From an uncultured Myxococcales bacterium (GTDB lineage: Bacteria > Myxococcota_A > Bradymonadia > UBA7976 > UBA1532): a stretch of 16,019 bases of DNA. Positions within the stretch are counted from its first letter, which is position 1. Each line of letters begins with the position of its first letter. Of the stretch, positions 1,166 through 14,086 are shown one piece after another. The translations under genes and the position numbers were made by a program. The DNA lies in NCBI GenBank assembly GCA_937896275.1, contig CALBMW010000727.1, positions 1 through 16,019 on the forward strand, read 5' to 3'. The notes below the pieces were generated by a model. That model saw nothing but the letters and a program-made list of their open reading frames with translations. It made no database searches and was not told where the DNA came from.

Positions 1166-1470
1166 GACGGCTCCAATGCCCGCTCGAGGCGGGCCCGCAG
1201 CGTCTCCGGATCCAGGGTCTCGAAGGCCACCCGCTTGCTGCGCCCGGTCGCGCCCTGAACGATCAGCACCGACCGCGCCGGCACATCCATCAGCTTGGCG
1301 AAGAAGCGCGTCAGGGCCGCGTTGGCTGCCCCGTCGACTGGCGGCGCCCGCAGGGCGACCTTGAGCGCACCGTCGTGCAAACCGACGAGCCCCTCGCGCC
1401 GAGCCCGAGGTTGCACGCGGACGGCCACGACCGCCCCCGCGCCCCGCGCCTCGACGCGCGGCGCGCTCAC
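1162..1470 (-). CDS. yggU: DUF167 / YggU family protein
   Basis: This is the C-terminal part of the 1162..2277 track ORF. The sequence VRVQPRARREGLVGLHDGALKVALRAPPVDGAANAALTRFFAKLMDVPARSVLIVQGATGRSKRV matches the DUF167 signature (V.PrA....v......L.v...ApP.dG.AN.al..f.a). The GTG start at 1470 overlaps the divIVA TGA (GTGA). Confidence 0.85.
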   Translation of the reverse strand: MSAPRVEARGAGAVVAVRVQPRARREGLVGLHDGALKVALRAPPVDGAANAALTRFFAKLMDVPARSVLIVQGATGRSKRVAFETLDPETLRARLERALEPS

Positions 1471-1952
1471 CGGCGCGCCTCCCGCGCCGGCTCCGCCTCG
1501 CGATCCATCTCTTCTTGGGTCTCGATGAGCCGCCGGTGACCCTCGATGATGCCGCGGACCTCGGCCATCAGGCGCGCCTTCTGCCGCCGCAGCCCCTGCG
1601 TCTCGTCGGCCAGCCGCACGACCTGCTCTTGAGCGTGCGACAGGATCTTGTCGGCCCGCAGCTCGGCCTCGGCCCGAATCAGCTCGGCCTCCTTGCGCGC
1701 GCTCTCCTTGATCTCGTCGGTCATCCGCCCAGCCTGCACCAGCGCCTCGCGCAGCTGCGCCTCGTTGCCGCGGAACTCCGCGAGCTGCTGCTCTCGCTTG
1801 CGAATCTCCTCTTTGAAGTGGTTGTTCTCGCGGATCATCTCCTCCATCTCGCGCGATACGAGATCGAGGAAGGTGTGCACCTGCTCCGGATCGCACCCGC
1901 GGAACACCCGCTGGAACTGCTGCTGATCGACCTCGAGCGGCGTGATCTTCAC
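1467..1952 (-). CDS. divIVA: DivIVA-domain cell-division/polarity protein
   Basis: 161 aa. The N-terminus MKITPLEVDQQQFQRVFRGCDPEQVHTFLDLV is the canonical DivIVA lipid-binding N-domain (TPLdi..k.F....RGYd..eVd.FLd.v). The remainder is heptad-like, E/R/K/Q-rich coiled coil. The GTG start at 1952 overlaps the proC TGA (GTGA). Confidence 0.9.
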   Translation of the reverse strand: MKITPLEVDQQQFQRVFRGCDPEQVHTFLDLVSREMEEMIRENNHFKEEIRKREQQLAEFRGNEAQLREALVQAGRMTDEIKESARKEAELIRAEAELRADKILSHAQEQVVRLADETQGLRRQKARLMAEVRGIIEGHRRLIETQEEMDREAEPAREARR

Positions 1953-2740
1953 GTCGTCTCCAACTCCTCGGACCGCTTGGTCGCGGCGCCCACCGCCTCG
2001 ATGAGCGCCGCGCGCAGTGCGTGGCGCTCGAGCACCGCGAGCCCCGCGATCGTGGTGCCCCCGGGCGAGGCCACCGCGTCCTTGAGGGCGGCCGGGTGCT
2101 CCCCCGTCTCGAAGGCCATCGCGCCCGCCCCACGCACCGCGGCCGCAGCGAGGCGCAGCGCGGTCGCTCGTGGCATCCCTGCCGCCACCGCGCCATCGGC
2201 CATCGCCTCGATGGCCACGAACAAGAAGGCCGGGCCGCTGCCGACCAGCGCCGTGCCGGCATGAAAGAGCCGCTCATCGGCGACCCTCTCCGCGATGCCG
2301 ACGGCCCCGAAGAGGGTGCAGACGCGCTCCACGTCCTCGACGCGATCGGCCGGCCCCGACAGCACGAGGGTCGCCCCCTGCCCCACGCGGCAGGCGATGT
2401 TCGGCATGGTCCGCACCACGCGGGCGGGTGACGCGGCCAGCTCGAGCCGGCGCCGCGAGACGCCGGCCGCCACCGAGATGACCAGCTGTTCGGGTGTGAA
2501 GGTCAGATCAGCGAGCGCCGCGTCCACTTGCGTCGGCTTGACCGCCAGGACGATCAGCTCCGCCGAGGCCGCCACCTGTTCCCGCGTCGAAGCGGTCACG
2601 CCCAGCCGGGCGGCGGTCTGCGCGCCGCTCTGACGGGCAGCGACCAGCACCTCGTCAGGGCGCATCAGGCCGCGGTCCAGCCACCCCGCGAGCAGCGCCT
2701 GCCCCAGCTTGCCGCAGCCCAGGAAACCGATCCGCCGCAT
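1949..2740 (-). CDS. proC: Pyrroline-5-carboxylate reductase
   Basis: 263 aa from the ATG at 2740 (cat at 2738-2740). It has the Rossmann motif IGFLGCGKLGQAL and the ProC C-terminal signature ALKDAVASPGGTTIAGL. GGGAG lies 6 nt upstream of the ATG. The longer 490-aa track ORF is an out-of-frame upstream extension. Confidence 0.93.
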   Translation of the reverse strand: MRRIGFLGCGKLGQALLAGWLDRGLMRPDEVLVAARQSGAQTAARLGVTASTREQVAASAELIVLAVKPTQVDAALADLTFTPEQLVISVAAGVSRRRLELAASPARVVRTMPNIACRVGQGATLVLSGPADRVEDVERVCTLFGAVGIAERVADERLFHAGTALVGSGPAFLFVAIEAMADGAVAAGMPRATALRLAAAAVRGAGAMAFETGEHPAALKDAVASPGGTTIAGLAVLERHALRAALIEAVGAATKRSEELETT

Positions 2741-2764
2741 CCCACGCTCCCATCCAGGCGCCCC

Positions 2765-2793
2765 AGCGTAGGAGCTTGATTCCCGCGAAGCAA
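2765..2793 (-). promoter_or_regulatory. Candidate sigma70-like promoter for proC-divIVA-yggU
   Basis: On the minus strand: TTGCTT (2793..2788), a 17-nt spacer, then TACGCT (2770..2765), about 25 nt upstream of the proC ATG. The match to consensus is weak and it lies in a 175-nt intergenic gap. Confidence 0.25.
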
Positions 2794-2915
2794 CCGAGCG
2801 CGGGGCGGCCGCGGACGGCGCGCCAGGGCGCGAAGCCGCGGCGGCGCGGGGAAACACCGGCCGGCAGAACGGTGCTGCGCGACGCGGCGCGATCTTTCTC
2901 TTGGGGCGGAGGCGC

Positions 2916-4175
2916 TCAGCGCTGCCCGAACAGGGCCGTGCCCACGCGCACGTGCGTCGCGCCTTCCGCGATCGCTGCCGGAAAGTCGTCGGACATGCCG
3001 ATCGACAGGGACGCCAAGGGTCGATCGGGGCGGGCGTGGGCGTCGCGCAGCATCCGGAGCGCCGCGAAACGTCGCCGCGTGGCGGCCAGGCCATCGGGGG
3101 GAGGCACCGCCATGAGGCCGTCGACCTGCAGGCCATCGATGTCAGCGAGCGCCGCCAGCAGCGCCCCGAGCGCAGCCGGCTCGACCCCGCTCTTGGTGTC
3201 CTCGGCGCCGATATTGACCTGCACGAGCGCGCGGACGGGCAGGCCCGACGCCCGGCGCGCCAACTCGGCCCCGAGCGCCACGTTGTCCAGGCCGTGCACC
3301 AGGTGCACCCGCCCCGCGACGTGCTTCGCCTTGTTGCGTTGAAGGTGGCCGATGAAGTGCCAGCGCGGCCGTTCACCGAGCTGCGCCGCCTTGTCGCGCC
3401 ACTCCTGGACGTAGTTCTCACCCAGATCGACCAGCCCGGCGTCGAGGGCCGCGGTCAGCCGCTCCACGGGCTGCGCCTTGCTCGCGCCCACCAGCGTCAC
3501 CGACGCGGCCGGCCGCCCCGCCGCCTGCGCGGCCGCCGCAATCCGCCCACGGATCACCGCCAGGCGGGCGGCGACGGGGCTACCGAAGGGCGGCAGGGCG
3601 CCCACCTCGACCAGGGCCTCGAGCACCTCGGCCAGCGGCAGCCCCACGACCCCGTCATAGCTGCCCTCCACGGCGTCCACCAACGCGCCCCCGCCGCCCT
3701 GCACCCCATAGGCGCCGGCCTTGTCGAGCGGATCGCCGGTGGCCACGTAGGCACAGAGGGCCTCCTCCGAGAGCGGCGCGAAGGTCACCTCGCTCACCGT
3801 CTCGCCCAGCCGGGGCGCCGCCGCGCCGCTCGCCAGCGCGAAGGCCGTCACCACCTGGTGACGTCGGCCCGCCAGGCGGCGCAGCATCGCGCGCGCCTCG
3901 TCCGGGTCCGCCGGCTTGCCGAGGATGTCGCCCTCCACGGTGACCACGGTGTCGCTCGCCAGCACCCAGCGTGGATCCTCGGCACGCCGGGCCCCGACCC
4001 CGGCCGCGGCTTTCTCGACCGCCATGCGCCGGGCGAAGTCCACCGGCGCCTCGCCCGCCGCAGGCACCTCGGCGACATCGACCGGGCGCACGACCGAGCG
4101 CACCCCGGCCGCCTCGAGCATCACGCGCCGTCGCGGCGACCCCGACGCCAACACCAAGTCAAACGGCACGCTCAT
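2916..4175 (-). CDS. maf-yggS: Fusion protein: N-terminal Maf (nucleoside-triphosphate pyrophosphatase / septum-formation-associated) plus C-terminal YggS/YlmE (PLP-homeostasis protein)
   Basis: A single uninterrupted frame. The Maf part has LVLASGSPRRR and DPLDKAGAYGVQGGGGALV..EGSYDGVVGLPL. It is followed directly by the YggS part, with the PLP-lysine context LVGASKAQP, plus DLGENYVQE, WHFIGHLQRNKAK, SIGMSDDF and VRVGTALFG. The preferred start is the ATG at 4175, with GAGGAGG 7 nt upstream. The track start at 4235 adds 20 non-homologous residues. Confidence 0.85.
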   Translation of the reverse strand: MSVPFDLVLASGSPRRRVMLEAAGVRSVVRPVDVAEVPAAGEAPVDFARRMAVEKAAAGVGARRAEDPRWVLASDTVVTVEGDILGKPADPDEARAMLRRLAGRRHQVVTAFALASGAAAPRLGETVSEVTFAPLSEEALCAYVATGDPLDKAGAYGVQGGGGALVDAVEGSYDGVVGLPLAEVLEALVEVGALPPFGSPVAARLAVIRGRIAAAAQAAGRPAASVTLVGASKAQPVERLTAALDAGLVDLGENYVQEWRDKAAQLGERPRWHFIGHLQRNKAKHVAGRVHLVHGLDNVALGAELARRASGLPVRALVQVNIGAEDTKSGVEPAALGALLAALADIDGLQVDGLMAVPPPDGLAATRRRFAALRMLRDAHARPDRPLASLSIGMSDDFPAAIAEGATHVRVGTALFGQR

Positions 4176-4240
4176 GTCCCCTCCTCGCCCGGTACGCCTC
4201 TGCGCCGATGAAAAACCCAGCAAAACAGCAACCACCGCCG

Positions 4241-4296: not shown

Positions 4297-4369
4297 TGAC
4301 ACTCGCGCGGCGTCACCCGCGCGTGGCGCTCACCGAACGATCCCGACCGAACGATCAAGGACGGTGCTC

Positions 4370-5008
4370 ATGAAGGGCCTCACAGAGCGACAGCAGCAGA
4401 TCCTCGACTTCATCACCGCCTCGATCGCCGGGCGCGGCTACCCGCCGACCATCCGCGAGATCGGCAAGCACATGGGCATCAAGTCCACCAACGGGGTCAA
4501 CGATCATCTCAAGGCGCTCGAGCGCAAGGGCGCGCTGCGGCGGGACGACCTCAAGAGCCGCGCGATGCGCCCGATGAACGTCGACGAAGAAGTGATCGAC
4601 ATCGTCGAGATCCCCATCCTGGGCCGCGTCGCCGCTGGCCAGCCCATCCTCGCCAACGGCGCCGAGATGCACGACGCCGAAGACACCGTCCGCATCGACC
4701 GCATGCTCGTCGGACGGGGCGAAGGCCTCTTCGGGCTGCGCATCGTGGGCGACTCGATGATCGAGGATGGCATCCTCGACGGAGACTACGTCTTCGTTCG
4801 CAAGGCGCCCACCGCGTCCAAGGGCGCGATCGTCGTGGTGCTCATCGACGGCGAGGCCACCTGCAAGCGCTACTTCCCCGAGGGCGACAGCATCCGGTTT
4901 CAACCCGCCAACGCCGCGATGGCCCCGATCTACGTGCACCAGCGGGACTTCCGTCAGACGATGATCCTCGGCGAGGTGGTCGGGGTGTACCGACGCCTGG
5001 CGCACTGA
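4370..5008 (+). CDS. lexA: LexA SOS repressor
   Basis: 212 aa from the ATG at 4370 (AAGGA 8 nt upstream). N-terminal winged HTH: [12 protein letters not shown]....[30 protein letters not shown]. Ala-Gly autocleavage site: VAAGQP. Catalytic Ser in GDSM and Lys in ATCKRY. Confidence 0.94.
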
Positions 5009-5150
5009 GAGGCGTCCGACCCGCCCGACCGTGGCCGGGCTCCTAGACGCGGCGCCGTGCGTGCCGACCCACCATCGCGCGCCCGCTGCGCAACCCACCC
5101 CGCGACGAGGTCGCCTCGGCGACGCAGCTGCACGCCCGCGTGCACGTTCT

Positions 5151-5177
5151 CCAGCACTCGCCGGCCGCGAGTGCTGG
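5151..5177 (+). promoter_or_regulatory. CIRCE-like HrcA operator (inverted repeat)
   Basis: CCAGCACTC-N9-GAGTGCTGG is a perfect 9-bp inverted repeat with a 9-nt spacer. It matches the CIRCE consensus TTAGCACTC-N9-GAGTGCTAA at 7 of 9 positions per arm. It is located 233 nt upstream of the groES ATG. Confidence 0.7.
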
Positions 5178-5266
5178 CACTCTCCCCGCGAGACTGCCAG
5201 ACGCACCTGCATTTCCTTTGATATTTCAGCAACTTCTCGACGCAGAAAAAAAACGTCCCCGGGTGG

Positions 5267-5294
5267 TTGACAGCCCGGCGCGAGCGCTTACATT
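5267..5294 (+). promoter_or_regulatory. Candidate sigma70-type groESL promoter
   Basis: A perfect TTGACA at 5267-5272, a 16-nt spacer, then TACATT at 5289-5294. It is preceded by the most AT-rich stretch of the window (5205-5256, including GAAAAAAAAC), in the UP-element position. This gives a leader of about 110 nt to groES. Confidence 0.45.
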
Positions 5295-5409
5295 CACTGC
5301 CGCTCGCGGTTGGCCGCGAAACGGATTCATCCATGCCGCCTGGTGGCGGCGCCCCGGAATCGTGGGCGGCACCTCAGAACGGCGACACCCTTTGCAGCGG
5401 GAGCACACC

Positions 5410-5700
5410 ATGAAGATCAGGCCCTTGTACGATCGCATCATCGTCAAGCGGATCGAAGCGGAGACCACCAGCAAGGGTGGCATCATCATCCCCGACAACG
5501 CCAAGGAGAAGCCCATCGAGGGCGAGGTCATCGCCGTCGGCAATGGCAAGATCCTCGACGACGGGTCCGTGCGCGCGCTCGAGGTGAAGGCCGGCGACCG
5601 CATCCTGTTCGGCAAGTACAGCGGGACCGAGATCAAGGTCAGCGGCGAAGAGCACCTCATCCTGCGCGAGGACGAAGTCCTTGCGATCGTCGAACGCTAA
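5410..5700 (+). CDS. groES: Co-chaperonin GroES
   Basis: 96 aa, [46 protein letters not shown]..., full-length GroES. GGGAG lies 6 nt upstream of the ATG. The 186-aa track ORF is an upstream extension. Confidence 0.97.
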
Positions 5701-5709
5701 AGGACTTAG

Positions 5710-7356
<1,647 letters not shown>

Positions 7357-7501: not shown

Positions 7502-8173
7502 TCAATCGACGAAGAGCGCGCCGAGCGGATCGGCCTGACCGTGCAGCGGGCTGTCGACCAATCCACCGAGGAGCAGGTGCAGCCACAGCAGAAGATCGGC
7601 GTCGCTGGCGGGCCGGCAGCGGACAGCCGCGCCCGTGCCACGGCGCGCGACGACATGACCGTCGAGCTGCACCTGGGCGCCGTCCTCGAGCGCGACCCGG
7701 ACCGCGACCGAGGCGCCCTCCAGGAGCCCCTCCGGCATCGGATCGACCCACAGCCCGTAGAGCGAGACGTCGAGCGAGCGGCTCTGCGCGCCGTCGATGG
7801 TGACCGCCAGATCGGCCCGGACGCGCGGATGCCGACGCAGGTTCGACGGGTGGCTGAGCACCTCGCGGACGTGGTGCGCCATCACCTCAGGTTTGTCGGG
7901 CAGCAGCCGTAACACAGCGGGCGGCAAGGACAATTCGGCCGGCGCGACCGCCAGCACGGGCACCAGCGCGGTGTCGTGCGCCGCCAGCGCGGCCTGGCCC
8001 GGAGGCTTGCGCGCGTCGAGCACCAGCAGCCCCCGACCGTCGTAGACCGCGACCGCGACCGCCTGCAGATCCGCCGCCGGGGCACGGCGAACGGCCACCC
8101 CCGCCTGGAGCAACTCGCCCTCGAGCGTCGCCAGCTCGTCGGTCCTACCCAGAATCCAGACCGTCGGTGTCAT
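7502..8173 (-). CDS. Receiver-like domain / PilZ domain protein (putative c-di-GMP receptor)
   Basis: 223 aa. The C-terminal half carries both PilZ signatures: RRHPR (RxxxR, aa 113-117) and DVSLYG (DxSxxG, aa 135-140). The N-terminal ~100 aa are CheY-like in pattern: WILGRTDE, LLVLDARKP with candidate Asp53, and LPDKPE with the conserved Lys-Pro. The beta4 Thr/Ser is replaced (VLAVA). The ATG at 8173 overlaps the ATPase TGA (ATGA), and GGGGAG lies 6 nt upstream. Confidence 0.8.
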   Translation of the reverse strand: MTPTVWILGRTDELATLEGELLQAGVAVRRAPAADLQAVAVAVYDGRGLLVLDARKPPGQAALAAHDTALVPVLAVAPAELSLPPAVLRLLPDKPEVMAHHVREVLSHPSNLRRHPRVRADLAVTIDGAQSRSLDVSLYGLWVDPMPEGLLEGASVAVRVALEDGAQVQLDGHVVARRGTGAAVRCRPASDADLLLWLHLLLGGLVDSPLHGQADPLGALFVD

Positions 8174-11049
8174 CGGGCGCTCCCCGTGCTCAGACCCGCC
8201 ACCCCGGCCCGCCGGGTCGCGCTCACAGCCTGCCGATGCAGGGCCTCGACGCGCGCGGGCACGCGCTCCGGATCGAGAGCCACGCCCTCGGCGTCCAGCA
8301 GATCCTCGTAGGGGTGGTCGACCCGATGCACCAAGCGCTCGCTCGCGAAGACGCTCTGCCGGATCAACGCCTGCGCGGGCGCCAGATCCATGGTCTGCAC
8401 GTGCAAGGTGCCGTCCGGCGTCACCACGGGCTCGTCGAGGCCGACCGAGCGATGCGCGGGCGGATCGGGCAGCGGATCACCGGCGCGGCGCCCATGCGCG
8501 ACCCCGTCGTCCAGCGGCGCCCACGACGCCGGCGCCTCCTCGCGCAGGCTCGGCGCGGCCCCCAAGCGGGGGCGTCCGGCCGACGACGCGAGCTCCGCGT
8601 CGGCCCACGGATCGTAGTCGTCTTCGCCTTCGTCCTCGTCTTGTGGGTCGGCCCGATCCGCGTCCCGTCCGCCCACCGCCAAGGCCTGCCCAGCGATCGA
8701 CGCGACCTGCCCACCCGGAGGTGCAGCCGAGCGCGCGGGCGTCGGCGCGGGCGCGGGCGCGGGCCCAGGAGCGGGCGTGGGCGTGCTCGCGGGCTCCTCG
8801 AAGAAGATGTCGTCGAAGGCCTGCTCGACGTCCTCATCGACGGTTCGGGTCGCCGGCGGCGGAGGCGTGTGGGGCGTGGCCGTTGCGCGGGCGCCGGCCA
8901 CCGGTGGGGTCTCGAACCCCAACGAGGAGGGGTCGAAGTCGGGCAGCGAGTCCTCCGGCGTGAAGCCGGGCGCCGCGGCGCGGCGGACGGGGGCGTCGTC
9001 GGGCCAGTCCGGCGCCGGGTCGCTGTCGCCGCCCGTGAGCGCCGCCAGGGCTTGGCGACCGGGGTGCGGCCGGGCCGAGGTTGCTGGCCAGGCTGGGATG
9101 CCGTCGGGCAGCGCCGCCGCCTCGAGCGCGGCCACGATGTCAGCCACCGCGCGGGGATCTACCAAAGGCTGCGGCTGCGCAGCGCTCACGGGCGGGGACG
9201 GCGTCGGCTCGACCGGCGAGCGACCGGCGTCGGCGGGCAGGTCCCACGCCATCTCGTCGGCGTCCACGGTCGGCACCTCGGCCGTCGGCCGCTCCGCCCG
9301 ATCGAAGGCCTCGTCGAGCGCCGCACCAAAACCGCCCGCGCCAGGCACCTGCTCCCACTCACCCCAGGCCGCCGCGAGGTCGGGCGCCGCCGAATCGACC
9401 GGCGGCGCCGCCTCCTCGGGAAGGTCCAGGCTGATCGCGGCCTCTGGCTCCGCGGCGTCCCAAGCGCCTGCGAGCGGATCGTCACCGAGGGCCGCGCCGA
9501 CGCGGTCGACCGCCGCAATGGGGGCGCTCTCCGCCGGGACCACGGCGGTGACGGGCACGACGGCGACCTCGATCGGGGTCTCCTCCGGATCGCCGACCCA
9601 AGCCTGCAGCGCGTCGGCGGGGGCGGCCTCGGTGTGAGCCGGCCCCGCCTGCCCTTCGCGCCAAGCGAGCTCCGCCGCGTCCATCCGGTCGGCGGTCTCC
9701 GCGCCGGCCACGGCGGCGCGGTCGATCGAGCCGGTCACGACCGAGAGTGGCCCCAACTCGTCCATCTCTGGGAGCGGCAGCTCGCCCAGATCGTCCATCT
9801 CTGCCGCCGGAAGATCCCCCAGCGAGTCCCCCGGAGTGAGTAGGGGCTCTCCCTCGTCGAGGCCACCGTCGGACGCACCCGGGGACGAGGCGTCGTCGCA
9901 CTCCTCGCTCGCCTCGGGCGCGGGTGGCTCCACCCACGCGCCCTCCGGCGTGCCCGGCGGCTCGCCCTGATCCACGACATCGTTGGGCGGACCCTCGGCC
10001 GGGACGTCGCCGCCTCGATCGCTCGCGTCGGCAACCGGCAGGTGTGGAACATGCTCGCTCGAATCGGCGTCGGCCGGCGGCTGATCACCGTCGGCGACGA
10101 GGCTGGGCGGCAGATCGCGACGCAGGAGCAGGTCCGGGCGCGCCGCGCCGCTGAACTCGAGCAGCCGATCCACCATCGCGGCCGTCGCGTCGCCCAGCGC
10201 GCCATAGGGCACTGTGTGCGCCACCGACTTCATGCGCCGGATCGCCGTCCGCACCTCCAACTCGATCGGCAGGGTGCCGGCGTGGGGGAGCGCGACGTCG
10301 AGGTAGCGGTGACACACGAGCCGCAGCGCGCCGAGGACTCGCCTCTCCTCGCGCTCGTTCGCCTGATTGATCACGACCTGCGCGCGGAAGTCGGCGACCA
10401 GCGCGGCGACCGCGTCAGCGATCGCGGGATCGGCGGCCCGCACCGCCTCGATCAGCGGCCCGACGGCGTCGAGCCGCTCCGTCGCGTCCCGCGGCTGCAT
10501 CACGCGCGCGAGGGCCGCCCGCACCACGGCCTCGTGGCCACAGCCCAGCTCGATGCGCCGGAAGAGCGCCGACTTCAGGAAGGCATAGGCGTTCTGGATC
10601 GAGGTCGGCTCCGGCCCCGTCACCACCAGCCCCAGACCGGCCAGGTTGAAGAAGTCGAGCGTCGTGTAGTGCGTGCCGGCGCCGAGGTCGATCAACACCA
10701 CGTCGACGTCCAGGCCGAGCACCGCGTCGATCAGTCGCTCCTTCTCGGTCGGTCGTGGATGAGCCGCCCGAAGGATGCCGGCGGCGCCGCTGATCAGTCG
10801 AAGACCGGGCACCTCGGTGTCGAGGCAGACCTCATCGAGCGTGTGGGCCCGCCCCAAAACGAAGTCGCTCAGCGTCCGGGCGGGCTGCAGCAGGCCCAGC
10901 AGGGTGTGCAGGTTCGCGGCGCCCAGATCGGCGTCCAACGCCACGACGCGCAGGCCCCGCCTGGCGAGCTCAGCGCCGACGATCGCGCACACCAGCGACT
11001 TGCCGACGCCGCCCTTGCCCCCACCGAAGGCCCAGACCCGCTCCGCCAT
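8170..11049 (-). CDS. ParA/MinD(FlhG)-like P-loop ATPase fused to a very long acidic disordered region and a small C-terminal domain
   Basis: 959 aa. Within aa 1-300 there is a deviant Walker A (GGGKGGVGKS) with its signature Lys, switch I (VVALDADLGAANLHTLLGL, FlhG/MinD-like) and Walker B (DVVLIDLGAG). Roughly aa 305-865 are Pro/Ala/Asp/Glu-rich low complexity. Roughly aa 866-959 have ordinary composition (VVTPDGTLHVQTMDLAPAQALIRQSVFASERLVHRVDHPYEDLLD). The ATG at 11049 shares 1 nt with the upstream TGA (TGATG), and GGGGGA lies 8-9 nt upstream. Confidence 0.85.
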   Translation of the reverse strand: MAERVWAFGGGKGGVGKSLVCAIVGAELARRGLRVVALDADLGAANLHTLLGLLQPARTLSDFVLGRAHTLDEVCLDTEVPGLRLISGAAGILRAAHPRPTEKERLIDAVLGLDVDVVLIDLGAGTHYTTLDFFNLAGLGLVVTGPEPTSIQNAYAFLKSALFRRIELGCGHEAVVRAALARVMQPRDATERLDAVGPLIEAVRAADPAIADAVAALVADFRAQVVINQANEREERRVLGALRLVCHRYLDVALPHAGTLPIELEVRTAIRRMKSVAHTVPYGALGDATAAMVDRLLEFSGAARPDLLLRRDLPPSLVADGDQPPADADSSEHVPHLPVADASDRGGDVPAEGPPNDVVDQGEPPGTPEGAWVEPPAPEASEECDDASSPGASDGGLDEGEPLLTPGDSLGDLPAAEMDDLGELPLPEMDELGPLSVVTGSIDRAAVAGAETADRMDAAELAWREGQAGPAHTEAAPADALQAWVGDPEETPIEVAVVPVTAVVPAESAPIAAVDRVGAALGDDPLAGAWDAAEPEAAISLDLPEEAAPPVDSAAPDLAAAWGEWEQVPGAGGFGAALDEAFDRAERPTAEVPTVDADEMAWDLPADAGRSPVEPTPSPPVSAAQPQPLVDPRAVADIVAALEAAALPDGIPAWPATSARPHPGRQALAALTGGDSDPAPDWPDDAPVRRAAAPGFTPEDSLPDFDPSSLGFETPPVAGARATATPHTPPPPATRTVDEDVEQAFDDIFFEEPASTPTPAPGPAPAPAPTPARSAAPPGGQVASIAGQALAVGGRDADRADPQDEDEGEDDYDPWADAELASSAGRPRLGAAPSLREEAPASWAPLDDGVAHGRRAGDPLPDPPAHRSVGLDEPVVTPDGTLHVQTMDLAPAQALIRQSVFASERLVHRVDHPYEDLLDAEGVALDPERVPARVEALHRQAVSATRRAGVAGLSTGSAR
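9742..9825 (-). repeat. In-frame 33-nt (11-aa) tandem repeat inside the ATPase disordered region
   Basis: TCGTCCATCTCTG recurs on the plus strand at 9758-9770 and 9791-9803. The protein reads LGDLPAAEMDD / LGELPLPEMDE / LGPLS, about 2.5 units. Confidence 0.7.
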
Positions 11050-12473
11050 CAGCGCGTTCCCCCGTCGCGTGCGTCGTGCGCCGCTGAGCCCCCATCCGGG
11101 GGGGGCGCGCCAGCGTCTCCTGCCTGCAGTCGGCGCAACAGGAGGCGGCGCTTGAACCCATTGAGTTCACCGCGGGCGTCCTTGGCTCTCAGGCTGTCGT
11201 AGAGCTTCTCCATGAGCACGCCGGTGGCGTACTCCACCCCCACCTGGTGGTCGACGAGCCATCGGATCAGCGTCGGATCGTCGGTGGCGGCCAGGGCCCG
11301 GATGATGGCGAACTGGTAGTTGCGGTAGGGGACGAGCAGCTTCTTGCGCCCCCCCTCCTGCACCGGGACCGTGCGCTCGGGGCAGTTCTCGAGCGGATCG
11401 GTGGAGACTTCGAACGCAGCCCGCAGGGGGCCCGATGCGTCGAACTCCGCCAGCTTTTCGAGCGCCTGGATGGCCGCGCAGCGCATCGCGAGCGACGGAT
11501 CCTCGAGCCGCGCGGTCAGCAGGTCGAGCAGCGCGCGGTTACGCAGCTCGCCCAGGGCCCACAGCGCCGCGAGCTGGGTGTCCTCGTCTTGGTTGCTCGT
11601 CAAGATGCGCCGCAGCAGATCGACCGCCGGCACCTTCAGCATGCCCAGCATCAAGGCGAGCGCCCGCGGCTCGCGCTGCGCGACGGGGCTCTCGGCGACC
11701 GTGCGCGCCGCCGTTCTGGCCTGCTCACCCCCCACCTGGCCCAGCGCGATGAGCGCCGTGAAGGTGAGCGCGGGCTGCTCGATGGCGAGTCGCCCCAGGC
11801 GCTCGGCGGCCGCCTGCACGCCCAGCGATCCCACCACGAACGCCGCGCGCGCCGCGACGCCCTCGTCGGGATCGTCGAGGGCTCGGAGCACCACCTGCTC
11901 GACCGCCGGGGTGACCGCGAAGTCGAGGCGCGTCGCCAACATGCTCATGCCCTCGCGACGCACCGCCGGATCGGCGCTCCGCATGTGCACCACCGCGACA
12001 CCTGGGTGTGAGTAGCGCCCCAGGAAGTTGTGGGACAGGGCATTGGACGAGAGGATGAAGGCCGCCGAGAAGGCCAGGAAGTACAGGCCAAAGCGAACGG
12101 ACGAGTCCCCGCCGCGCAGGGCCTCACGGTCCTCCGCGTCGGTGGTCTCGTGCCCCATCCCGTCGATGCGGGCGTCGAGCTCGGCCATCTCGTCGCGCAG
12201 GAAGTGCTCGGTGAACCCGCGGTAGAAGAGCGCCTCGCCCAAGCTGATGACCGACACCAGCCCAGCGACGACGCCCACCGCCATCCACACCGCGACCAGT
12301 ACGAAGCTGAGCCCCGGCGAGTCAGCGCTGTGGTCGATGTAGCGATGGATCAGGTACGCCGCGCCGTAGAAGCCGGCGACGGCGATGAGCAGCATCCCGT
12401 AGCGACGAGCCGCCGTGCCGAAGAGCGCAGCGCGCAGACCGTGCACCGGCGGGCGGTGTGGACGTCCACTCAC
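11049..12473 (-). CDS. Polytopic membrane protein with HEAT (PBS-lyase-type) repeat domain
   Basis: 474 aa. There are three predicted TM helices: MLLIAVAGFYGAAYLIHRYI, LSFVLVAVWMAVGVVAGLVSVISLG and VRFGLYFLAFSAAFILSSNAL. After them come repeated HEAT-like units: SADPAVRREGMSMLATRL, LDDPDEGVAARAAFVVGSLG, NQDEDTQLAALWALGELR and LEDPSLAMRCAAIQALEKL. The start is uncertain. GTG at 12473 abuts the upstream TGA (TGAGTG); alternatives are GTG at 12446 or ATG at 12395, and none has a strong SD. Confidence 0.72.
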   Translation of the reverse strand: MSGRPHRPPVHGLRAALFGTAARRYGMLLIAVAGFYGAAYLIHRYIDHSADSPGLSFVLVAVWMAVGVVAGLVSVISLGEALFYRGFTEHFLRDEMAELDARIDGMGHETTDAEDREALRGGDSSVRFGLYFLAFSAAFILSSNALSHNFLGRYSHPGVAVVHMRSADPAVRREGMSMLATRLDFAVTPAVEQVVLRALDDPDEGVAARAAFVVGSLGVQAAAERLGRLAIEQPALTFTALIALGQVGGEQARTAARTVAESPVAQREPRALALMLGMLKVPAVDLLRRILTSNQDEDTQLAALWALGELRNRALLDLLTARLEDPSLAMRCAAIQALEKLAEFDASGPLRAAFEVSTDPLENCPERTVPVQEGGRKKLLVPYRNYQFAIIRALAATDDPTLIRWLVDHQVGVEYATGVLMEKLYDSLRAKDARGELNGFKRRLLLRRLQAGDAGAPPPDGGSAAHDARDGGTR

Positions 12474-13310
12474 TCAGTTGCCGATCTCAGGCTCCTGGGG
12501 GAAGTAGAAGCCGAAGCCGACCGTCACCGCGAAGTTGTTGCTGATATTGCTGTCGGTGCTCGTCGTCGTGGCGCCCTGTCCATCGCTCTCGACGACGGCG
12601 TTCAGGGAAGAAGAGTAGATGTAGTCGCGGAACTCGAGGTTGACCGCCATGCCGTCGGTCACGAAGGTGCGCAGGCCCACCCCGACGCTGCCCGTCGGTG
12701 TAGCCCCGTCGACGTCCGTCGAGCCGCTGACCAACGTGGCGCCGACCCCGGCGAGCACGTGCAGATCGTAGTTGAGGACCGAACGCCCAAAGAGCGCGAA
12801 CTTGCCGACGAGGGGCGTGTAGATCACCTCGAGCGTGCCCAGCAGGCCCACGTGGGAGAACGCGCCCGCGTCGCTCTTCTCGGGCCGCTCGTCCTCGATG
12901 CGGTCCGCGAGGCCCGAGTTGAAGGGCACCCCCCCCAGCACCGTGGCGCCGATGGCCCAGGCATCCGTGAGGTGATAGGCCAGCTGTGCCCCCAACAGCA
13001 GGTTGCGCTGGAAGGCGTCGTTGAGCGTGAACCCGAAGGTCGGCGTGACCTCGAAGCGACCGCCCCGCAGCATCAGCCGCTTGCGGATCGCCTCGCCCTC
13101 TTCGAGACGGTCGAGCGCCGACCGACGGGGGCCCTGAATGCTGGCCGCCCCGGCTTCGCCGATCGGCATGATCCCACCGAAGACGCCCGCGAGGGCGACG
13201 GCGAGGACCGCGGCCCCCACAGATCCCCCCACCCCGAGCGTTCCGGGCCGCCCCAGCGGGGCGACATGCCCTACGGCATCGTGCTGCTGCGTGGTCAAAG
13301 GCCCCCTCAC
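12474..13310 (-). CDS. Outer-membrane beta-barrel protein (paralogue 2 of tandem pair)
   Basis: These are the last 278 codons of the 12474..14129 track ORF. A hydrophobic signal-like segment (GAAVLAVALAGVFGG) is followed by alternating-hydrophobic beta-strand sequence ending NNFAVTVGFGFYF, which resembles an OMP beta-signal. It is colinear with the upstream gene product: RFEVTPTFGFTLNDA vs RVEVAPFLGTNINDA, YTPLVGKFALFG vs YVPIYGKFALFN, and LEFRDYIY vs IELRDNIY. The start is either GTG at 13310 (GTGA overlap) or TTG at 13298 (GAGG upstream). Confidence 0.7.
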   Translation of the reverse strand: MRGPLTTQQHDAVGHVAPLGRPGTLGVGGSVGAAVLAVALAGVFGGIMPIGEAGAASIQGPRRSALDRLEEGEAIRKRLMLRGGRFEVTPTFGFTLNDAFQRNLLLGAQLAYHLTDAWAIGATVLGGVPFNSGLADRIEDERPEKSDAGAFSHVGLLGTLEVIYTPLVGKFALFGRSVLNYDLHVLAGVGATLVSGSTDVDGATPTGSVGVGLRTFVTDGMAVNLEFRDYIYSSSLNAVVESDGQGATTTSTDSNISNNFAVTVGFGFYFPQEPEIGN

Positions 13311-14086
13311 TTCAGCGTCCGGTACTCGAAGTCGGGCGGCAGAAAGAAGCTGACGCCGGCGGTGAAGATCAAGTTGTTCACCAGCTGGCTGTTGCCCGGA
13401 TAGTCCTCGTTGTAGATGTTGTCCCGCAGCTCGATGTCGAGCGTGAACCAGTGGTTCATGAAGTACCGCTGACCCGCGCCGATCGACAGCGTCGGGTGAC
13501 CGGCGAGCTCGGTCTTCGTCCAGCCGGCGCCCAGCAGCGCGTAGGTGTCCCACGGGATGATCCAGGTGTTGAACAGCGCGAACTTGCCGTAGATGGGCAC
13601 ATACTGGAAGTCGAGCAGCGCCCACCACTGCACCTTCGACACCTGCGGGAACAGCTCGTAATCCTCGATCACGCTGTTGAACAGGTCGCTCTCCGAGCCC
13701 AGGCTGTAGCCGCCGTTTACGCCGACCGCCATGACCTCGGTCAAGTGGTAGTTCAGGTTGCCGCCGGCGACGAACATGCTCGCGAGAGCGTCGTTGATGT
13801 TGGTGCCCAGGAAGGGCGCCACCTCGACGCGGTTGCGGCGCAGGAAGGGGCGCCGTTGAATGACCCGGATGAGGTCGATCTCCTCCTGGCGGGAGCGCTC
13901 GACCTCCTTCGCCGCGGCCTGCGTGTCGACCACGTCGAAGGTCAGGTCCCCCCCCGCGTCGTCCCCACCGGTCGCGTCGTCCCCGACCTCGACCGGGTCG
14001 AACGTCATGTCCTGCGCCAGCGCAGCCGGCGCGGCGGTGAGAGCCGCCAGGAACACGACCGATGCCGCCCTCGTGCGCAGGTTCAT
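13307..14086 (-). CDS. Outer-membrane beta-barrel protein (paralogue 1 of tandem pair)
   Basis: 259 aa from the ATG at 14086, with GGAGG 2-7 nt upstream. The signal peptide is a clean Sec type, MNLRTRAASVVFLAALTAAPAALA/QD. An acidic Gly/Asp-rich linker is followed by beta-strand-pattern sequence rich in aromatic girdle residues, ending NLIFTAGVSFF plus an 11-aa tail. It resembles the myxobacterial outer-membrane beta-barrel domain family (TIGR04565-like, from memory). Confidence 0.8.
   Translation of the reverse strand: MNLRTRAASVVFLAALTAAPAALAQDMTFDPVEVGDDATGGDDAGGDLTFDVVDTQAAAKEVERSRQEEIDLIRVIQRRPFLRRNRVEVAPFLGTNINDALASMFVAGGNLNYHLTEVMAVGVNGGYSLGSESDLFNSVIEDYELFPQVSKVQWWALLDFQYVPIYGKFALFNTWIIPWDTYALLGAGWTKTELAGHPTLSIGAGQRYFMNHWFTLDIELRDNIYNEDYPGNSQLVNNLIFTAGVSFFLPPDFEYRTLK

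What the first reader, a model, noticed from the sequence alone, without database searches (positions are those of the whole stretch)
8455..10137. A roughly 560-residue lysine-free, acidic, Trp-studded disordered region fused to a ParA/MinD-like ATPase
Seen in sequence:
- After the ATPase fold (aa 1-300), the protein becomes Pro/Ala/Asp/Glu/Gly-rich low complexity for about 560 aa.
- I count no lysine anywhere after aa 274. The only lysines are K12, K17, K103, K159 and K274.
- The FtsY linker in the same window is lysine-rich (AKKPEPKKPE, AKAPAKAPAAKAKP). GC pressure alone therefore does not explain the absence.
- Despite being disordered-like, the region holds 11 Trp, against 1 in the ATPase domain. 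Seven are in an Ala-Trp context flanked by acidic or Pro residues: GAWVEPP, LAWREG, QAWVGDPEE, GAWDAAEPE, AAWGEWEQ, MAWDLPAD, PAWPAT. The others are DWPDD, DPWADAE and SWAPLDD.
- There are also Phe-acidic motifs: PDFDPSSLGFE and AFDDIFFEE.

Inference:
- These look like multivalent short linear motifs (stickers) for a repeated docking partner. The adjacent HEAT solenoid is the obvious candidate, because W-acidic motifs binding alpha-solenoids is an established principle in eukaryotic kinesin-light-chain/TPR systems.
- The architecture also recalls acidic polar hub proteins (HubP/FimV) that recruit ParA-like ATPases, except that here the hub-like tail is fused to the ATPase itself.
- A condensate-forming or entropic-tether role is also possible.
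Basis: partly seen in the sequence, partly recalled or inferred. Interest (0 to 1): 0.72.

Follow-up and report, generated by a model that had tools for sequence, protein, structure and literature searches.

The report
Acidic tryptophan-rich tether inside MinD-like ATPase
The region is a real, roughly 550-residue disordered acidic linker studded with tryptophans; it joins a FleN/FlhG-like MinD ATPase to a previously unnoticed RomY-like regulatory domain in uncultured Myxococcota, an undescribed architecture whose binding partners are still unknown.

Summary
The ORF at 8170-11049 (-) is one 959-aa gene. Lysines occur only at 12, 17, 103, 159 and 274, and 11 of its 12 Trp lie in aa 372-843. Trp is about 3x the codon-composition expectation and about 6x that of disorder-like segments in neighbouring proteins.

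The lack of lysine is weak evidence. Lineage-specific proteins here have K/(K+R) of 0.05-0.18, and orthologous linkers carry 0-10 Lys.

The region is a linker, not a tail. Aa 868-955 fold confidently into four strands plus a helix and are homologous to the RomY N-terminal domain (hhalign 99.1%). RomY is a Myxococcus co-GAP.

The ATPase plus RomY_N core also occurs in Acidobacteriota and Nitrospirota with linkers of 12-40 aa, next to c-di-GMP genes (HD-GYP or PilZ). The giant acidic linker is therefore a Myxococcota-specific expansion. It grows by tandem duplication of aromatic-acidic units and carries about 10 conserved islands.

Docking onto the HEAT protein is poorly supported. The HEAT gene is missing from the locus in the clade that includes the Trp-richest linker, and its solenoid may be periplasmic.

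Best reading: an expandable polyanionic tether carrying multivalent aromatic short motifs. The partner is unresolved.

The parts
8170..11049 (-). Whole gene: 959-aa FleN/FlhG-like MinD ATPase, then acidic disordered linker, then RomY_N-like domain.
   Evidence: Single ORF with coding periodicity throughout. Identical protein on independent contigs. Same three-part architecture in about 25 homologues.
10120..11049 (-). ParA/MinD-type ATPase domain (aa 1-310).
   Evidence: Pfam CbiA scores 39.7 bits and ParA 37.5 bits, both above their curated cut-offs. AF2 pLDDT is >90 over most of the domain. The closest solved relatives are FleN (5j1j, E 8e-29), FlhG (4rz2) and then MinD.
10996..11025 (-). 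Deviant Walker A, GGGKGGVGKS, with signature Lys12 and P-loop Lys17.
   Evidence: Read directly from the sequence. K12, G13, G14, G16, S18, D39, D41 and D121 are invariant in the 22-sequence family alignment.
8449..10119 (-). Intrinsically disordered acidic linker (aa 311-867): net charge about -87, no Lys, 11 Trp, 8 Phe.
   Evidence: (pLDDT < 50 for 479 residues). In relatives the equivalent linker ranges from 12 to about 1,094 aa.
9742..9798 (-). Conserved island 1, MDDLGELPLPEMDELGPLS (aa 418-436); repeated LGELP units.
   Evidence: Aligned with P0002 and P0003. A 33-nt tandem repeat lies at 9751-9822.
9652..9714 (-). Conserved island 2, ...TADRMDAAELAWREG (aa 446-466); predicted transient helix containing W463.
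   Evidence: Conserved in P0002 and P0003, where the Trp is replaced by Leu. AF2 helix 446-466 with pLDDT about 52-58.
9289..9330 (-). Conserved island 3, FGAALDEAFDRAER (aa 574-587); acidic amphipathic helix.
   Evidence: The pattern [FW]xxALDxAFxxxE is conserved in all six aligned orthologues. AF2 helix 575-585.
9082..9156 (-). Conserved island 4, AVADIVAALEAAALPDGIPAWPA (aa 632-656) with W654.
   Evidence: Conserved. AF2 helix 632-644; the highest linker confidence is in the aa 631-640 block (mean pLDDT 68).
8995..9057 (-). Conserved island 5, RQALAALTGGDSDPAPDWPDD (aa 665-685) with W682.
   Evidence: Conserved in P0002 and P0003. AF2 helix 665-672.
8920..8964 (-). Conserved island 6, FTPEDSLPDFDPSSL (aa 696-710); Phe-acidic motif.
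   Evidence: DSLPDFDPSSL is identical in P0002 and P0003.
8800..8847 (-). Conserved island 7, RTVDEDVEQAFDDIFF (aa 735-750); acidic amphipathic helix.
   Evidence: The pattern [DE][IVLM][DE]xA[LFMI][DE] occurs 11 times in 16 long linkers against 0.3 expected. The pattern was defined after seeing the data. AF2 helix 737-750 with pLDDT about 57-63.
8674..8718 (-). Island 8, degenerate copy of the family motif LPGLSxxxxAAxA (aa 778-792).
   Evidence: The motif is clear in P0004-P0006, P0010, P0012, P0022 and others, and weak in the query.
8575..8616 (-). Conserved island 9, YDPWADAELASSAG (aa 812-825) with W815; the best-conserved motif of the linker.
   Evidence: DP[WF] followed by L/V occurs in 12 of 16 long linkers against 1.8 expected. 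Also present in L014 and L017. AF2 helix 814-823.
8515..8529 (-). Conserved island 10, ASWAP (aa 841-845) with W843.
   Evidence: The Trp is conserved in all six aligned orthologues.
8185..8448 (-). Folded C-terminal RomY_N-like domain (aa 868-955): four beta-strands followed by a long helix.
   Evidence: AF2 with a 21-sequence alignment gives pLDDT 90.7 and pTM 0.83. hhalign against stand-alone RomY_Nterm proteins gives probability 99.1 %, E 1.8e-18. NCBIfam NF053858 scores 20 bits, below the cut-off of 50. No solved homologue was found.
7502..8173 (-). Downstream, translationally coupled (ATGA overlap) 223-aa PilZ protein with RRHPR (aa 113) and DVSLYG (aa 135).
   Evidence: Pfam PilZ scores 23.2 against a cut-off of 22.5. 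Both motifs are conserved in 9 orthologues. The overlap was read.
11049..12473 (-). Upstream, translationally coupled (TGATG overlap) membrane HEAT-repeat protein.
   Evidence: Pfam HEAT_2, E 1.3e-16. Overlap read. Three hydrophobic segments and a conserved loop FLRDEMAELDARIDG. The gene caller starts it at window 12395.
12474..14086 (-). Two paralogous outer-membrane beta-barrel genes (12474-13298 and 13307-14086) that precede the HEAT and ATPase genes in every related locus.
   Evidence: NCBIfam TIGR04565 OMP_myx_plus scores 121 and 103.5 bits. Synteny.

Best explanation
**What it is**
- The region encodes an intrinsically disordered, strongly polyanionic linker of about 550 aa.
- The linker tethers a catalytically intact FleN/FlhG-like MinD/ParA ATPase domain to a folded RomY_N-like domain in the same polypeptide.
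- The core of ATPase plus RomY_N-like domain is old. It is found in three phyla, and in each it sits next to a c-di-GMP gene.
- The giant linker is an expansion specific to uncultured Myxococcota. It arose by tandem duplication of short acidic units, each built around one aromatic residue (Trp or Phe).

**How it most likely works (inferred, not shown)**
1. Self-repulsion keeps the chain expanded. This sets the reach and the effective concentration of the RomY_N-like module relative to the ATPase dimer. By analogy with RomY, which acts at the nucleotide pocket of MglA, that module is an NTPase-regulating or partner-recruiting domain.
2. The acidic context keeps the Trp/Phe residues, and about 10 conserved short helix-prone islands in the C-terminal half, solvent-exposed. 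They can then act as multivalent low-affinity docking motifs.

**Partner**
- The receptor for these motifs is unresolved.
- Candidates in decreasing order: a partner encoded elsewhere; the protein's own folded domains; the co-translated PilZ protein; the HEAT protein.
For: **Shown**
- Single coding ORF.
- Disorder: AF2 pLDDT < 50 for 479 residues, with low-to-medium-confidence helices exactly at the conserved islands. The charge-hydropathy test agrees.
- Both flanking domains fold with high confidence.
- The ATPase catalytic residues are invariant and its closest solved relatives are FleN and FlhG.
- C-domain homology to RomY_Nterm. RomY's N-domain binds MglA-GTP near the nucleotide pocket plus one MglB monomer and stimulates GAP activity (PMC9481161).
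- Linker length is 12-16 aa in Acidobacteriota, about 40 aa in a Thermodesulfovibrionales protein, and 112-1,094 aa in Myxococcota.
- c-di-GMP neighbours: REC plus HD-GYP-type HD_5 in three Acidobacteriota loci, and PilZ in Nitrospirota and Myxococcota.
- Trp excess and Ala-Trp bias.
- Tandem aromatic-acidic arrays: six 32-aa units in P0003 and fifteen 15-aa units in P0008. Phe-based arrays occur in L017 and P0015.
- Conserved islands, including DPWxxEL.

**Precedent**
- An invariant Trp in the disordered adaptor McdB mediates cargo binding in a ParA/MinD system (PMC11321042).
Against: - No binding partner has been demonstrated.
- Six of the 11 Trp are not positionally conserved even in the nearest orthologues, which share 69-74 % identity in the ATPase domain.
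- Aromatic spacing is indistinguishable from random.
- Recent tandem repeats could be neutral slippage products.
- Among Myxococcota, linker length tracks presence of the PilZ gene. However, a Nitrospirota relative has PilZ with a short linker. PilZ proteins are themselves net acidic. The correlation therefore does not identify PilZ as the receptor.
- The window's C-domain scores below NCBIfam's RomY_Nterm cut-off.
- Whether that domain acts on its own ATPase is pure inference. The AF2 inter-domain error map was not available to me.
Confidence: 0.55

Rival explanations
1. First reader's model. The Trp-acidic motifs are stickers that dock repeatedly onto the adjacent HEAT solenoid, by analogy with W-acidic motifs binding TPR or ARM solenoids.
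For: - The HEAT gene is immediately upstream and translationally coupled.
- It is present in 19 of the 27 related Myxococcota loci examined, including distant ones (L006, L022, L026).
- Trp motifs binding alpha-solenoids is an established principle from my own knowledge. PMC11321042 also discusses kinesin-1 recognition of tryptophan-acidic motifs as an analogy.
Against: - The HEAT gene is missing from the locus in one clade (L004/L012, L005, L016, L023, L089, and the truncated L020, L021, L025). That clade includes the Trp-richest linker (34 Trp, 3.1 %). HEAT is kept beside short linkers with 0-2 Trp.
- Three hydrophobic segments with a positive-inside pattern would place the HEAT domain in the periplasm. 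The pattern is 4 K/R at the N-terminus, 0-1 in loop 1 and 4-7 in loop 2.
- A conserved cytoplasmic loop, rather than the solenoid, is the more accessible contact.
Confidence: 0.1
2. Neutral low-complexity expansion. The linker is only an entropic spacer produced by slippage in a 72-77 % GC gene. The Trp and the lack of Lys are compositional by-products without specific binding function.
For: - Length variation is extreme, from 12 to about 1,094 aa.
- Linker identity to the nearest orthologues is 32-39 %.
- Aromatic spacing is random.
- Lys poverty is general for lineage-specific proteins in this window.
- Acidic flanking of Trp is not significant within the query.
- Simple repeats are present at the DNA level.
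Against: - Trp is 3x the codon-composition expectation (P = 9e-4) and 6x that of disorder-like segments of neighbouring proteins.
- Ala-Trp bias has P = 0.001.
- Trp is the best-conserved residue type at the greater distance (0.30 identity against 0.16 overall).
- About 10 islands are conserved and coincide with AF2 helical propensity.
- Independent lineages amplify units that each retain one aromatic residue.
Confidence: 0.2
3. Polyanionic hub or condensate scaffold (HubP-, PopZ- or McdB-like). The linker drives phase separation or forms a polar matrix that concentrates clients of the ATPase.
For: - The sequence is acidic, repeat-rich and Pro/Ala-rich, and is attached to a ParA/MinD ATPase.
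- McdB's Trp tunes condensate formation (PMC11321042).
- HubP and PopZ are acidic polar organisers that recruit ParA-like ATPases (my own knowledge).
Against: - NCPR is -0.15, with only 26 Arg and no Lys in 560 residues. Strong self-repulsion makes homotypic condensation unlikely without a polycationic partner.
- There is no even aromatic patterning.
- No oligomerisation, transmembrane, LysM or FimV domain was detected.
- The chain is bounded by two folded domains, as a tether would be.
Confidence: 0.1

Closest known systems
RomY of Myxococcus xanthus (co-GAP of the MglA/MglB polarity module; NCBIfam NF053858 RomY_Nterm)
   Same: The C-terminal domain (aa 868-955) is homologous to RomY's conserved N-terminal domain. 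hhalign gives probability 99.1 % over 84 columns, with a shared HVQT-D...Y...H motif pattern. In RomY this domain contacts a P-loop NTPase near its nucleotide pocket and tunes hydrolysis (PMC9481161).
   Different: RomY is a 188-aa stand-alone protein. Here the domain is C-terminal, fused to a SIMIBI-class ATPase through a 550-aa acidic linker. It scores only 20 bits against the curated model (cut-off 50). No MglA or MglB gene lies in the window.
FleN / FlhG (MinD-like ATPases that control flagellar number and place; FleN antagonises the c-di-GMP-binding FleQ)
   Same: These are the closest solved relatives of the ATPase domain (5j1j, E 8e-29; 4rz2). They share the deviant Walker A and a genomic link to c-di-GMP signalling.
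   Different: Only 5 residues precede strand 1, so there is no N-terminal activator helix. I did not see a C-terminal amphipathic membrane helix. There are no flagellar genes. The strict EIDAL-type FlhG-binding motif is absent from the query linker and not enriched in the family. No known FlhG or FleN carries a disordered linker plus a RomY_N-like domain.
McdA/McdB and other ParA/MinD-adaptor pairs (ParB, MinE, PomX/PomY)
   Same: A ParA/MinD ATPase works with a largely disordered partner segment. In McdB an invariant Trp in a disordered region mediates cargo binding (PMC11321042).
   Different: In those systems the adaptor is a separate protein and activates the ATPase through a basic N-terminal peptide. 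Here the disordered segment is in cis, is strongly acidic, and ends in a folded RomY_N-like domain.
Acidic polar organisers HubP/FimV and PopZ (own knowledge)
   Same: They also have acidic, Pro-rich, repeat-containing disordered regions that organise ParA-like ATPases.
   Different: This protein has no LysM, transmembrane or FimV C-terminal domain, and no PopZ oligomerisation helices. The acidic region belongs to the ATPase polypeptide itself and is a linker between two folded domains.
Eukaryotic aromatic-in-acidic short motifs: kinesin light chain W-acidic motifs, GW182 Trp motifs, DPW/DPF appendage-binding motifs, acidic activation domains (own knowledge; the kinesin analogy is also in PMC11321042)
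   Same: Trp or Phe is embedded in acidic, disordered sequence and repeated many times. The family-wide context is D-[DE]-x-D-[AP]-W-[AGST]-[DE]. The motif DPWxxEL is conserved.
   Different: This is only an analogy of principle. There is no homologous receptor, and only EMAWDL approximates the kinesin [LM]-[DE]-W-[DE] core.
BcsQ-BcsE-BcsA(PilZ) of cellulose secretion (own knowledge)
   Same: A MinD/ParA-like ATPase is genetically coupled to c-di-GMP receptors and to envelope-spanning components. Here those components are two outer-membrane barrels and a membrane HEAT protein.
   Different: No glycosyltransferase or Bcs genes are present. The similarity is one of logic only.

Membership tests
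ParA/MinD (deviant Walker A, SIMIBI) ATPases | Match to Pfam CbiA (PF01656) or ParA (PF10609) above the gathering score | tested here: met
   39.7 bits against 25.4, and 37.5 bits against 27.1.
ParA/MinD (deviant Walker A, SIMIBI) ATPases | Deviant Walker A, xKGGxxK[ST], with the signature lysine; switch-I and Walker-B aspartates | tested here: met
   GGGKGGVGKS at aa 9-18. K12, D39, D41 and D121 are invariant in 22 family members.
ParA/MinD (deviant Walker A, SIMIBI) ATPases | ATP-dependent sandwich dimer and partner-stimulated hydrolysis | not testable with these tools
   Requires biochemistry.
MinD proper | NCBIfam equivalog TIGR01968 score above its cut-off; MinC/MinE genes nearby | tested here: not met
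   53.1 bits against a cut-off of 212.9. No minC or minE among the neighbours.
FlhG / FleN | N-terminal activator helix for FlhF; flagellar gene context; binding to the EIDAL motif of FliM/FliY | tested here: not met
   Only 5 residues precede strand 1. No flagellar genes are present. A strict EIDAL-like motif is absent from the query and not enriched in the family (4 observed against 1.4 expected). FleN is nevertheless the closest solved structure.
RomY_Nterm (NCBIfam NF053858) | Score of at least 50 bits against the curated model | tested here: not met
   The window C-domain scores 20.4 bits, E 5e-4. The short-linker relative P0105 scores 48.7 bits.
RomY_Nterm (NCBIfam NF053858) | Homology of the domain at superfamily level | tested here: met
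   A profile search with alignment A1 recovers proteins that score 76-132 bits on RomY_Nterm. hhalign of A1 against A3 gives probability 99.1 %, E 1.8e-18.
RomY_Nterm (NCBIfam NF053858) | Binding to MglA-GTP and MglB; co-GAP activity | not testable with these tools
   No MglA or MglB in the window. AF-Multimer was not available.
HubP / FimV polar hubs | Periplasmic LysM, a transmembrane segment, and a FimV C-terminal domain flanking the acidic repeats | tested here: not met
   Pfam and NCBIfam find only the ATPase domain and the RomY_N-like domain.
Sticker-spacer condensate-forming low-complexity domains | Aromatic residues spaced more evenly than random; near-neutral or balanced charge | tested here: not met
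   Gap CV is 0.91 against 0.92 in shuffles. NCPR is -0.15.
PilZ c-di-GMP receptors (the neighbouring gene) | Pfam PilZ above the gathering score, with the RxxxR and [DN]xSxxG motifs | tested here: met
   23.2 bits against 22.5. RRHPR and DVSLYG are conserved in 9 orthologues. Actual c-di-GMP binding was not tested.

The most novel reading that the evidence does not exclude
This would be a self-contained, c-di-GMP-linked positioning or polarity switch of a kind not yet described.
- A MinD/ParA ATPase carries its own RomY-type NTPase-regulating domain in cis.
- The tether between them has evolved into an expandable polyanionic array of Trp/Phe short motifs.
- The array's length and valency tune the coupling, and it recruits further clients, possibly in competition with the similar DP[FL]GxLF tail of the PilZ protein.

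The adaptor/activator and hub functions, which are separate proteins in all studied ParA/MinD systems, would then be merged into one polypeptide. It would also link MglA/RomY-type polarity logic to ParA/MinD logic.
Probability: 0.25. Interest if true: 0.8.

Novelty: new variant of a known kind. Interest (0 to 1): 0.55.

Why it matters
ParA/MinD ATPases position chromosomes, division sites, flagella, chemoreceptor arrays and microcompartments. In every studied case, specificity and ATPase activation come from a separate partner protein.

**What differs here**
- The ATPase is fused to a RomY-like domain. The only characterised relative of that domain regulates a small GTPase at its nucleotide pocket.
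- The fusion recurs in three phyla next to c-di-GMP genes. This points to an unstudied c-di-GMP-controlled ATPase module.

**The Myxococcota linker as a natural experiment**
- The same two folded domains are separated by anything from 12 to about 1,100 residues.
- The linker has independently amplified Trp- or Phe-centred acidic units in several lineages.
- It could show how tether length and motif valency tune a bacterial NTPase switch.

**Limits**
- All close relatives come from uncultured organisms.
- No partner is known, so the function remains inferred.

Tried and rejected
1. **Lysine exclusion as a selected feature: rejected.** Orthologous linkers have 0-10 Lys. Pooled K/(K+R) is 0.088 against 0.130 in their ATPase domains. 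Window proteins of the same class have 0.05-0.18.
2. **FlhG-EIDAL idea: rejected.** I asked whether the acidic helices D[VI][DE]xA[FL][DE] are built-in copies of the FliM EIDAL motif that FlhG binds. A strict EIDAL-like pattern is absent from the query and not enriched in the family (4 observed against 1.4 expected, P = 0.05). The register also differs.
3. **Even aromatic (sticker) spacing: not found**.
4. **PilZ as electrostatic partner: rejected.** PilZ orthologues have net charge -3 to -17.
5. **PilZ as a partner specific to the long linker: weakened.** Within Myxococcota every locus with a linker of at least 298 aa has PilZ, and none with a linker of 208 aa or less has it. This needs at least two switches on an unsupported NJ tree. 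However, a Thermodesulfovibrionales relative pairs PilZ with a linker of about 40 aa.
6. **Rosetta-stone fusion P0030 (ATPase plus PilZ).** The link holds only at domain-family level. There is no specific similarity to this PilZ.
8. **Closer orthologues for a finer conservation test.** The metagenome scan found none. The protein database holds nothing between 74 % and 100 % identity.
9. **Literature.** I found no paper describing a MinD-like ATPase fused to a RomY-like domain, or this operon.
10. **Split or mis-assembled ORF: rejected**.

Full report
**1. The observation**

The minus-strand ORF 8170-11049 translates to 959 aa.

- Lys occurs only at positions 12, 17, 103, 159 and 274.
- Trp occurs at position 6 and at 11 positions between 372 and 843.
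- The seven Ala-Trp contexts and both Phe-acidic motifs are present as quoted.
- The middle region is A 19.8, P 15.9, D 11.8, E 8.2 %, with net charge -87.

The frame is genuine. GC3 > GC1 > GC2 holds in all nine 100-codon blocks. The identical protein is called on four contigs, read from at least three different assemblies. Orthologues keep one ORF across very different linker lengths. The start matches orthologues (MA.RVWAFGGGKGG).

**2. Is it more than chance?**

Trp:
- It makes up 1.96 % of the linker. Position-specific codon composition predicts 0.62 % (P = 9e-4).
- Disorder-like segments of 53 neighbouring proteins from four related loci have 0.33 % (P = 4e-6). All neighbouring protein sequence has 1.0 % (P = 0.03).
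- Ala-Trp occurs 7 times against 2.2 expected (P = 0.001).
- Acidic flanking of Trp is not significant inside this one protein (P = 0.13). It is visible family-wide, with context D-[DE]-x-D-[AP]-W-[AGST]-[DE].

Lys:
- Zero Lys against about 5 expected gives P = 0.005.
- This genome writes lineage-specific proteins almost without Lys. K/(K+R) is 0.11 in PilZ, 0.15 in HEAT and 0.05 in the peptidase, against 0.49 in FtsY and 0.62 in GroEL.
- Orthologous linkers carry 0-10 Lys. Pooled K/(K+R) is 0.088 against 0.130 in their ATPase domains.
- The lysine-free state is therefore real here, but it is not a conserved or selected property. FtsY was not a fair control.

**3. Anatomy**

ATPase domain:
- Pfam recognises only a CbiA/ParA ATPase at aa 7-207.
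- The closest solved relatives are FleN (E 8e-29), FlhG and then MinD.
- The deviant Walker A, GGGKGGVGKS, and the catalytic aspartates are invariant in the family.

Linker:
- AlphaFold2 on a 22-sequence alignment gives pLDDT > 90 over most of aa 1-310 and aa 860-955, and < 50 for 479 linker residues.
- Short helices of pLDDT about 50-68 appear at 446-466, 575-585, 632-644, 665-672, 737-750 and 814-823.
- The charge-hydropathy rule also calls the linker disordered and both ends folded.

- Aa 868-955 form a conserved domain. Modelled alone it reaches pLDDT 90.7, with four strands and a long helix.
- It has no Pfam model and no solved homologue.
- A profile search of 1.8 billion representative proteins found 343 relatives. 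Many score 76-132 bits on NCBIfam RomY_Nterm.
- A profile-profile comparison with 20 stand-alone members gives 99.1 % probability, E 1.8e-18.
- The window domain alone scores 20 bits, below the curated cut-off of 50. I therefore call it RomY_N-like rather than a RomY.
- RomY is the M. xanthus co-GAP. Its N-domain binds MglA-GTP next to the nucleotide pocket, also binds one MglB monomer, and stimulates GTP hydrolysis (PMC9481161).

**4. Evolution of the linker**

About 25 homologues share the order ATPase, linker, RomY_N-like domain. Close relatives are all from uncultured Myxococcota MAGs, labelled Nannocystaceae, Bradymonadia or Myxococcales.

Linker length:

| Lineage | Linker length |
|---|---|
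| Three Acidobacteriota genomes | 12-16 aa |
| A Thermodesulfovibrionales protein (P0122) and P0105 | about 30-40 aa |
| Myxococcota | 112-1,094 aa |

- Long linkers are uniformly acidic (18-28 % D+E) and hold 0.6-3.1 % Trp.
- Several contain recent tandem arrays, each unit built around one aromatic residue:
  - six 32-aa units with DPWADE in P0003;
  - fifteen 15-aa units, AWTDEAAEAGAEDVA, in P0008;
  - Phe-based DEPF[DE]xP units in L017 and EPPFEP[VI]FEAEP units in P0015.

Conservation in an alignment with the five nearest orthologues:
- The query linker is 32-39 % identical to the two closest.
- W654, W682, W815 and W843 are conserved in both. W815 and W843 are conserved in all six proteins.
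- The six Trp of the N-terminal half are not positionally conserved.
- About ten islands are conserved and coincide with the AF2 helical segments. The clearest are [FW]xxALDxAFxxxE, RTVDEDVEQAFDDI, DSLPDFDPSSL and [YF]DPWxDxELASS.

The pattern is motif turnover with maintained valency in the N-terminal half, and fixed short motifs in the C-terminal half.

**5. Genomic context**

- The order FtsY, OMP_myx_plus, OMP_myx_plus, (HEAT membrane protein), ATPase, (PilZ) is conserved across about 20 species-level Myxococcota loci. GroEL lies downstream on the opposite strand where sequence extends that far.
- In the window, the HEAT, ATPase and PilZ genes overlap (TGATG and ATGA), which indicates translational coupling.

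PilZ:
- It passes Pfam's threshold and keeps RRHPR and D[VI]S[LP][YF]G in all orthologues.
- Within Myxococcota, every locus with a linker of at least 298 aa has PilZ, and none with a linker of 208 aa or less has it. An unsupported NJ tree suggests more than one switch.
- The Thermodesulfovibrionales short-linker relative is also followed by a PilZ gene.
- The three Acidobacteriota relatives are followed by a REC plus HD-GYP-type HD_5 protein.
- The c-di-GMP link therefore belongs to the ancient ATPase plus RomY_N core, not to the long linker.
- PilZ proteins are net acidic, so charge attraction is excluded.

HEAT:
- The gene is absent from the locus in one clade (L004, L005, L016, L023, L089) that includes the Trp-richest linker. 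It is present beside short, Trp-poor linkers.
- The protein has three hydrophobic segments. The K/R distribution places the N-terminus and a conserved 50-aa loop (FLRDEMAELDARIDG) in the cytoplasm. If the weak third segment spans the membrane, the HEAT domain is in the periplasm.

**6. Mechanism**

Shown:
- A disordered polyanionic chain connects a catalytically intact FleN/FlhG-like ATPase and a RomY_N-like domain.
- The chain is lineage-specifically expanded by duplication of aromatic-acidic units and contains conserved helix-prone islands.

Inferred:
- It acts as an expandable tether. It sets the reach and effective concentration of the RomY_N-like module, which by analogy with RomY regulates or recruits an NTPase, possibly its own ATPase.
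- It also displays exposed Trp/Phe motifs for multivalent, low-affinity docking.
- A precedent inside the ParA/MinD world is the invariant Trp of the disordered adaptor McdB (PMC11321042).
- I put this at 0.55. The rivals are a pure neutral spacer (0.2), HEAT docking (0.1) and a self-condensing hub (0.1).

**7. Comparison and novelty**

- The ATPase is a member of the ParA/MinD family. It is not MinD proper (53 bits against a cut-off of 213). It is not a canonical FlhG: it has no N-terminal activator helix, no flagellar context and no EIDAL motifs.
- The C-domain is a superfamily relative of RomY, not a RomY.
- HubP/FimV features are absent.
- My literature searches found no description of this fusion or operon.
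- I classify it as a new variant of a known kind.
- Interest is 0.55. The architecture and the natural series of linker lengths are unusual and testable. Against that, all close relatives are uncultured and the function is inferred.

Noticed in passing
window 8185-8448 (-): A conserved, confidently folded RomY_N-like domain closes the ORF. The same domain family also occurs at the N-terminus of TonB_C proteins (P0074, P0087, P0094), in a REC plus DUF4388 protein (P0075), as triple repeats (P0109), and as small stand-alone proteins.
   Followed up: yes
window 7502-8173 (-); loci L004, L005, L007, L008, L011, L013, L016, L023, L089: PilZ orthologues end in a conserved DP[FL]GxLF motif. It resembles the linker's best-conserved island, [YF]DPWxDxEL, which suggests a shared docking pocket. 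The first 100 aa or so have an alternating beta/alpha pattern with a VLLD-type strand, possibly a degenerate receiver domain.
   Followed up: partly
window 11049-12473 (-): The HEAT protein has three hydrophobic segments and a highly conserved 50-aa loop, FLRDEMAELDARIDG. The positive-inside pattern suggests the HEAT domain is periplasmic. The loop is then a candidate cytoplasmic contact for the ATPase.
   Followed up: partly
P0011, P0014, P0016-P0021, P0024, P0025 (short-linker clade): The Walker A is GGAKGGVGRS, with the P-loop Lys replaced by Arg (KGGVGR-type). Long-linker members keep GKS. This clade has its own conserved Trp motif, RDWK[SA]VAW, in its linker.
   Followed up: no
L028, L029, L031 (Acidobacteriota); L093 (Thermodesulfovibrionales): Short-linker fusions of ATPase plus RomY_N are immediately followed by a REC plus HD-GYP-type protein or a PilZ protein. 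The association with c-di-GMP genes thus spans several phyla.
   Followed up: yes
L024 9956-11467; L009 about 10001-14052: The L024 orthologue stops right after DPWAD. It lacks both the C-domain and PilZ, and GroEL follows directly, so this is either a deletion or a mis-assembly. The L009 orthologue is interrupted by a frameshift.
   Followed up: partly
L017 7159-8979; P0015: These linkers are made of Phe-acidic tandem units (DEPF[DE]xP, and EPPFEP[VI]FEAEP with 40 Phe) instead of Trp units. The general theme is therefore aromatic-in-acidic rather than Trp as such.
   Followed up: partly
window 128-4235 (-) and 4364-7356 (+): The flanks hold a Maf-YggS fusion, ProC, a 161-aa DivIVA-domain protein, YggU/DUF167 and a Peptidase_MA_2 protein. 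Together these resemble a ylm-like division-associated cluster. LexA and GroES/GroEL are also present. In relatives, smc-ftsY lies upstream.
   Followed up: no
window 12474-14086 (-): Two paralogous OMP_myx_plus (TIGR04565) beta-barrel genes always precede the HEAT and ATPase genes. This hints at an envelope-spanning assembly.
   Followed up: no
window 8167-9843 (+): A 558-aa Arg-rich antisense ORF overlaps the linker. It is the usual high-GC mirror-frame artefact and not a gene.
   Followed up: partly
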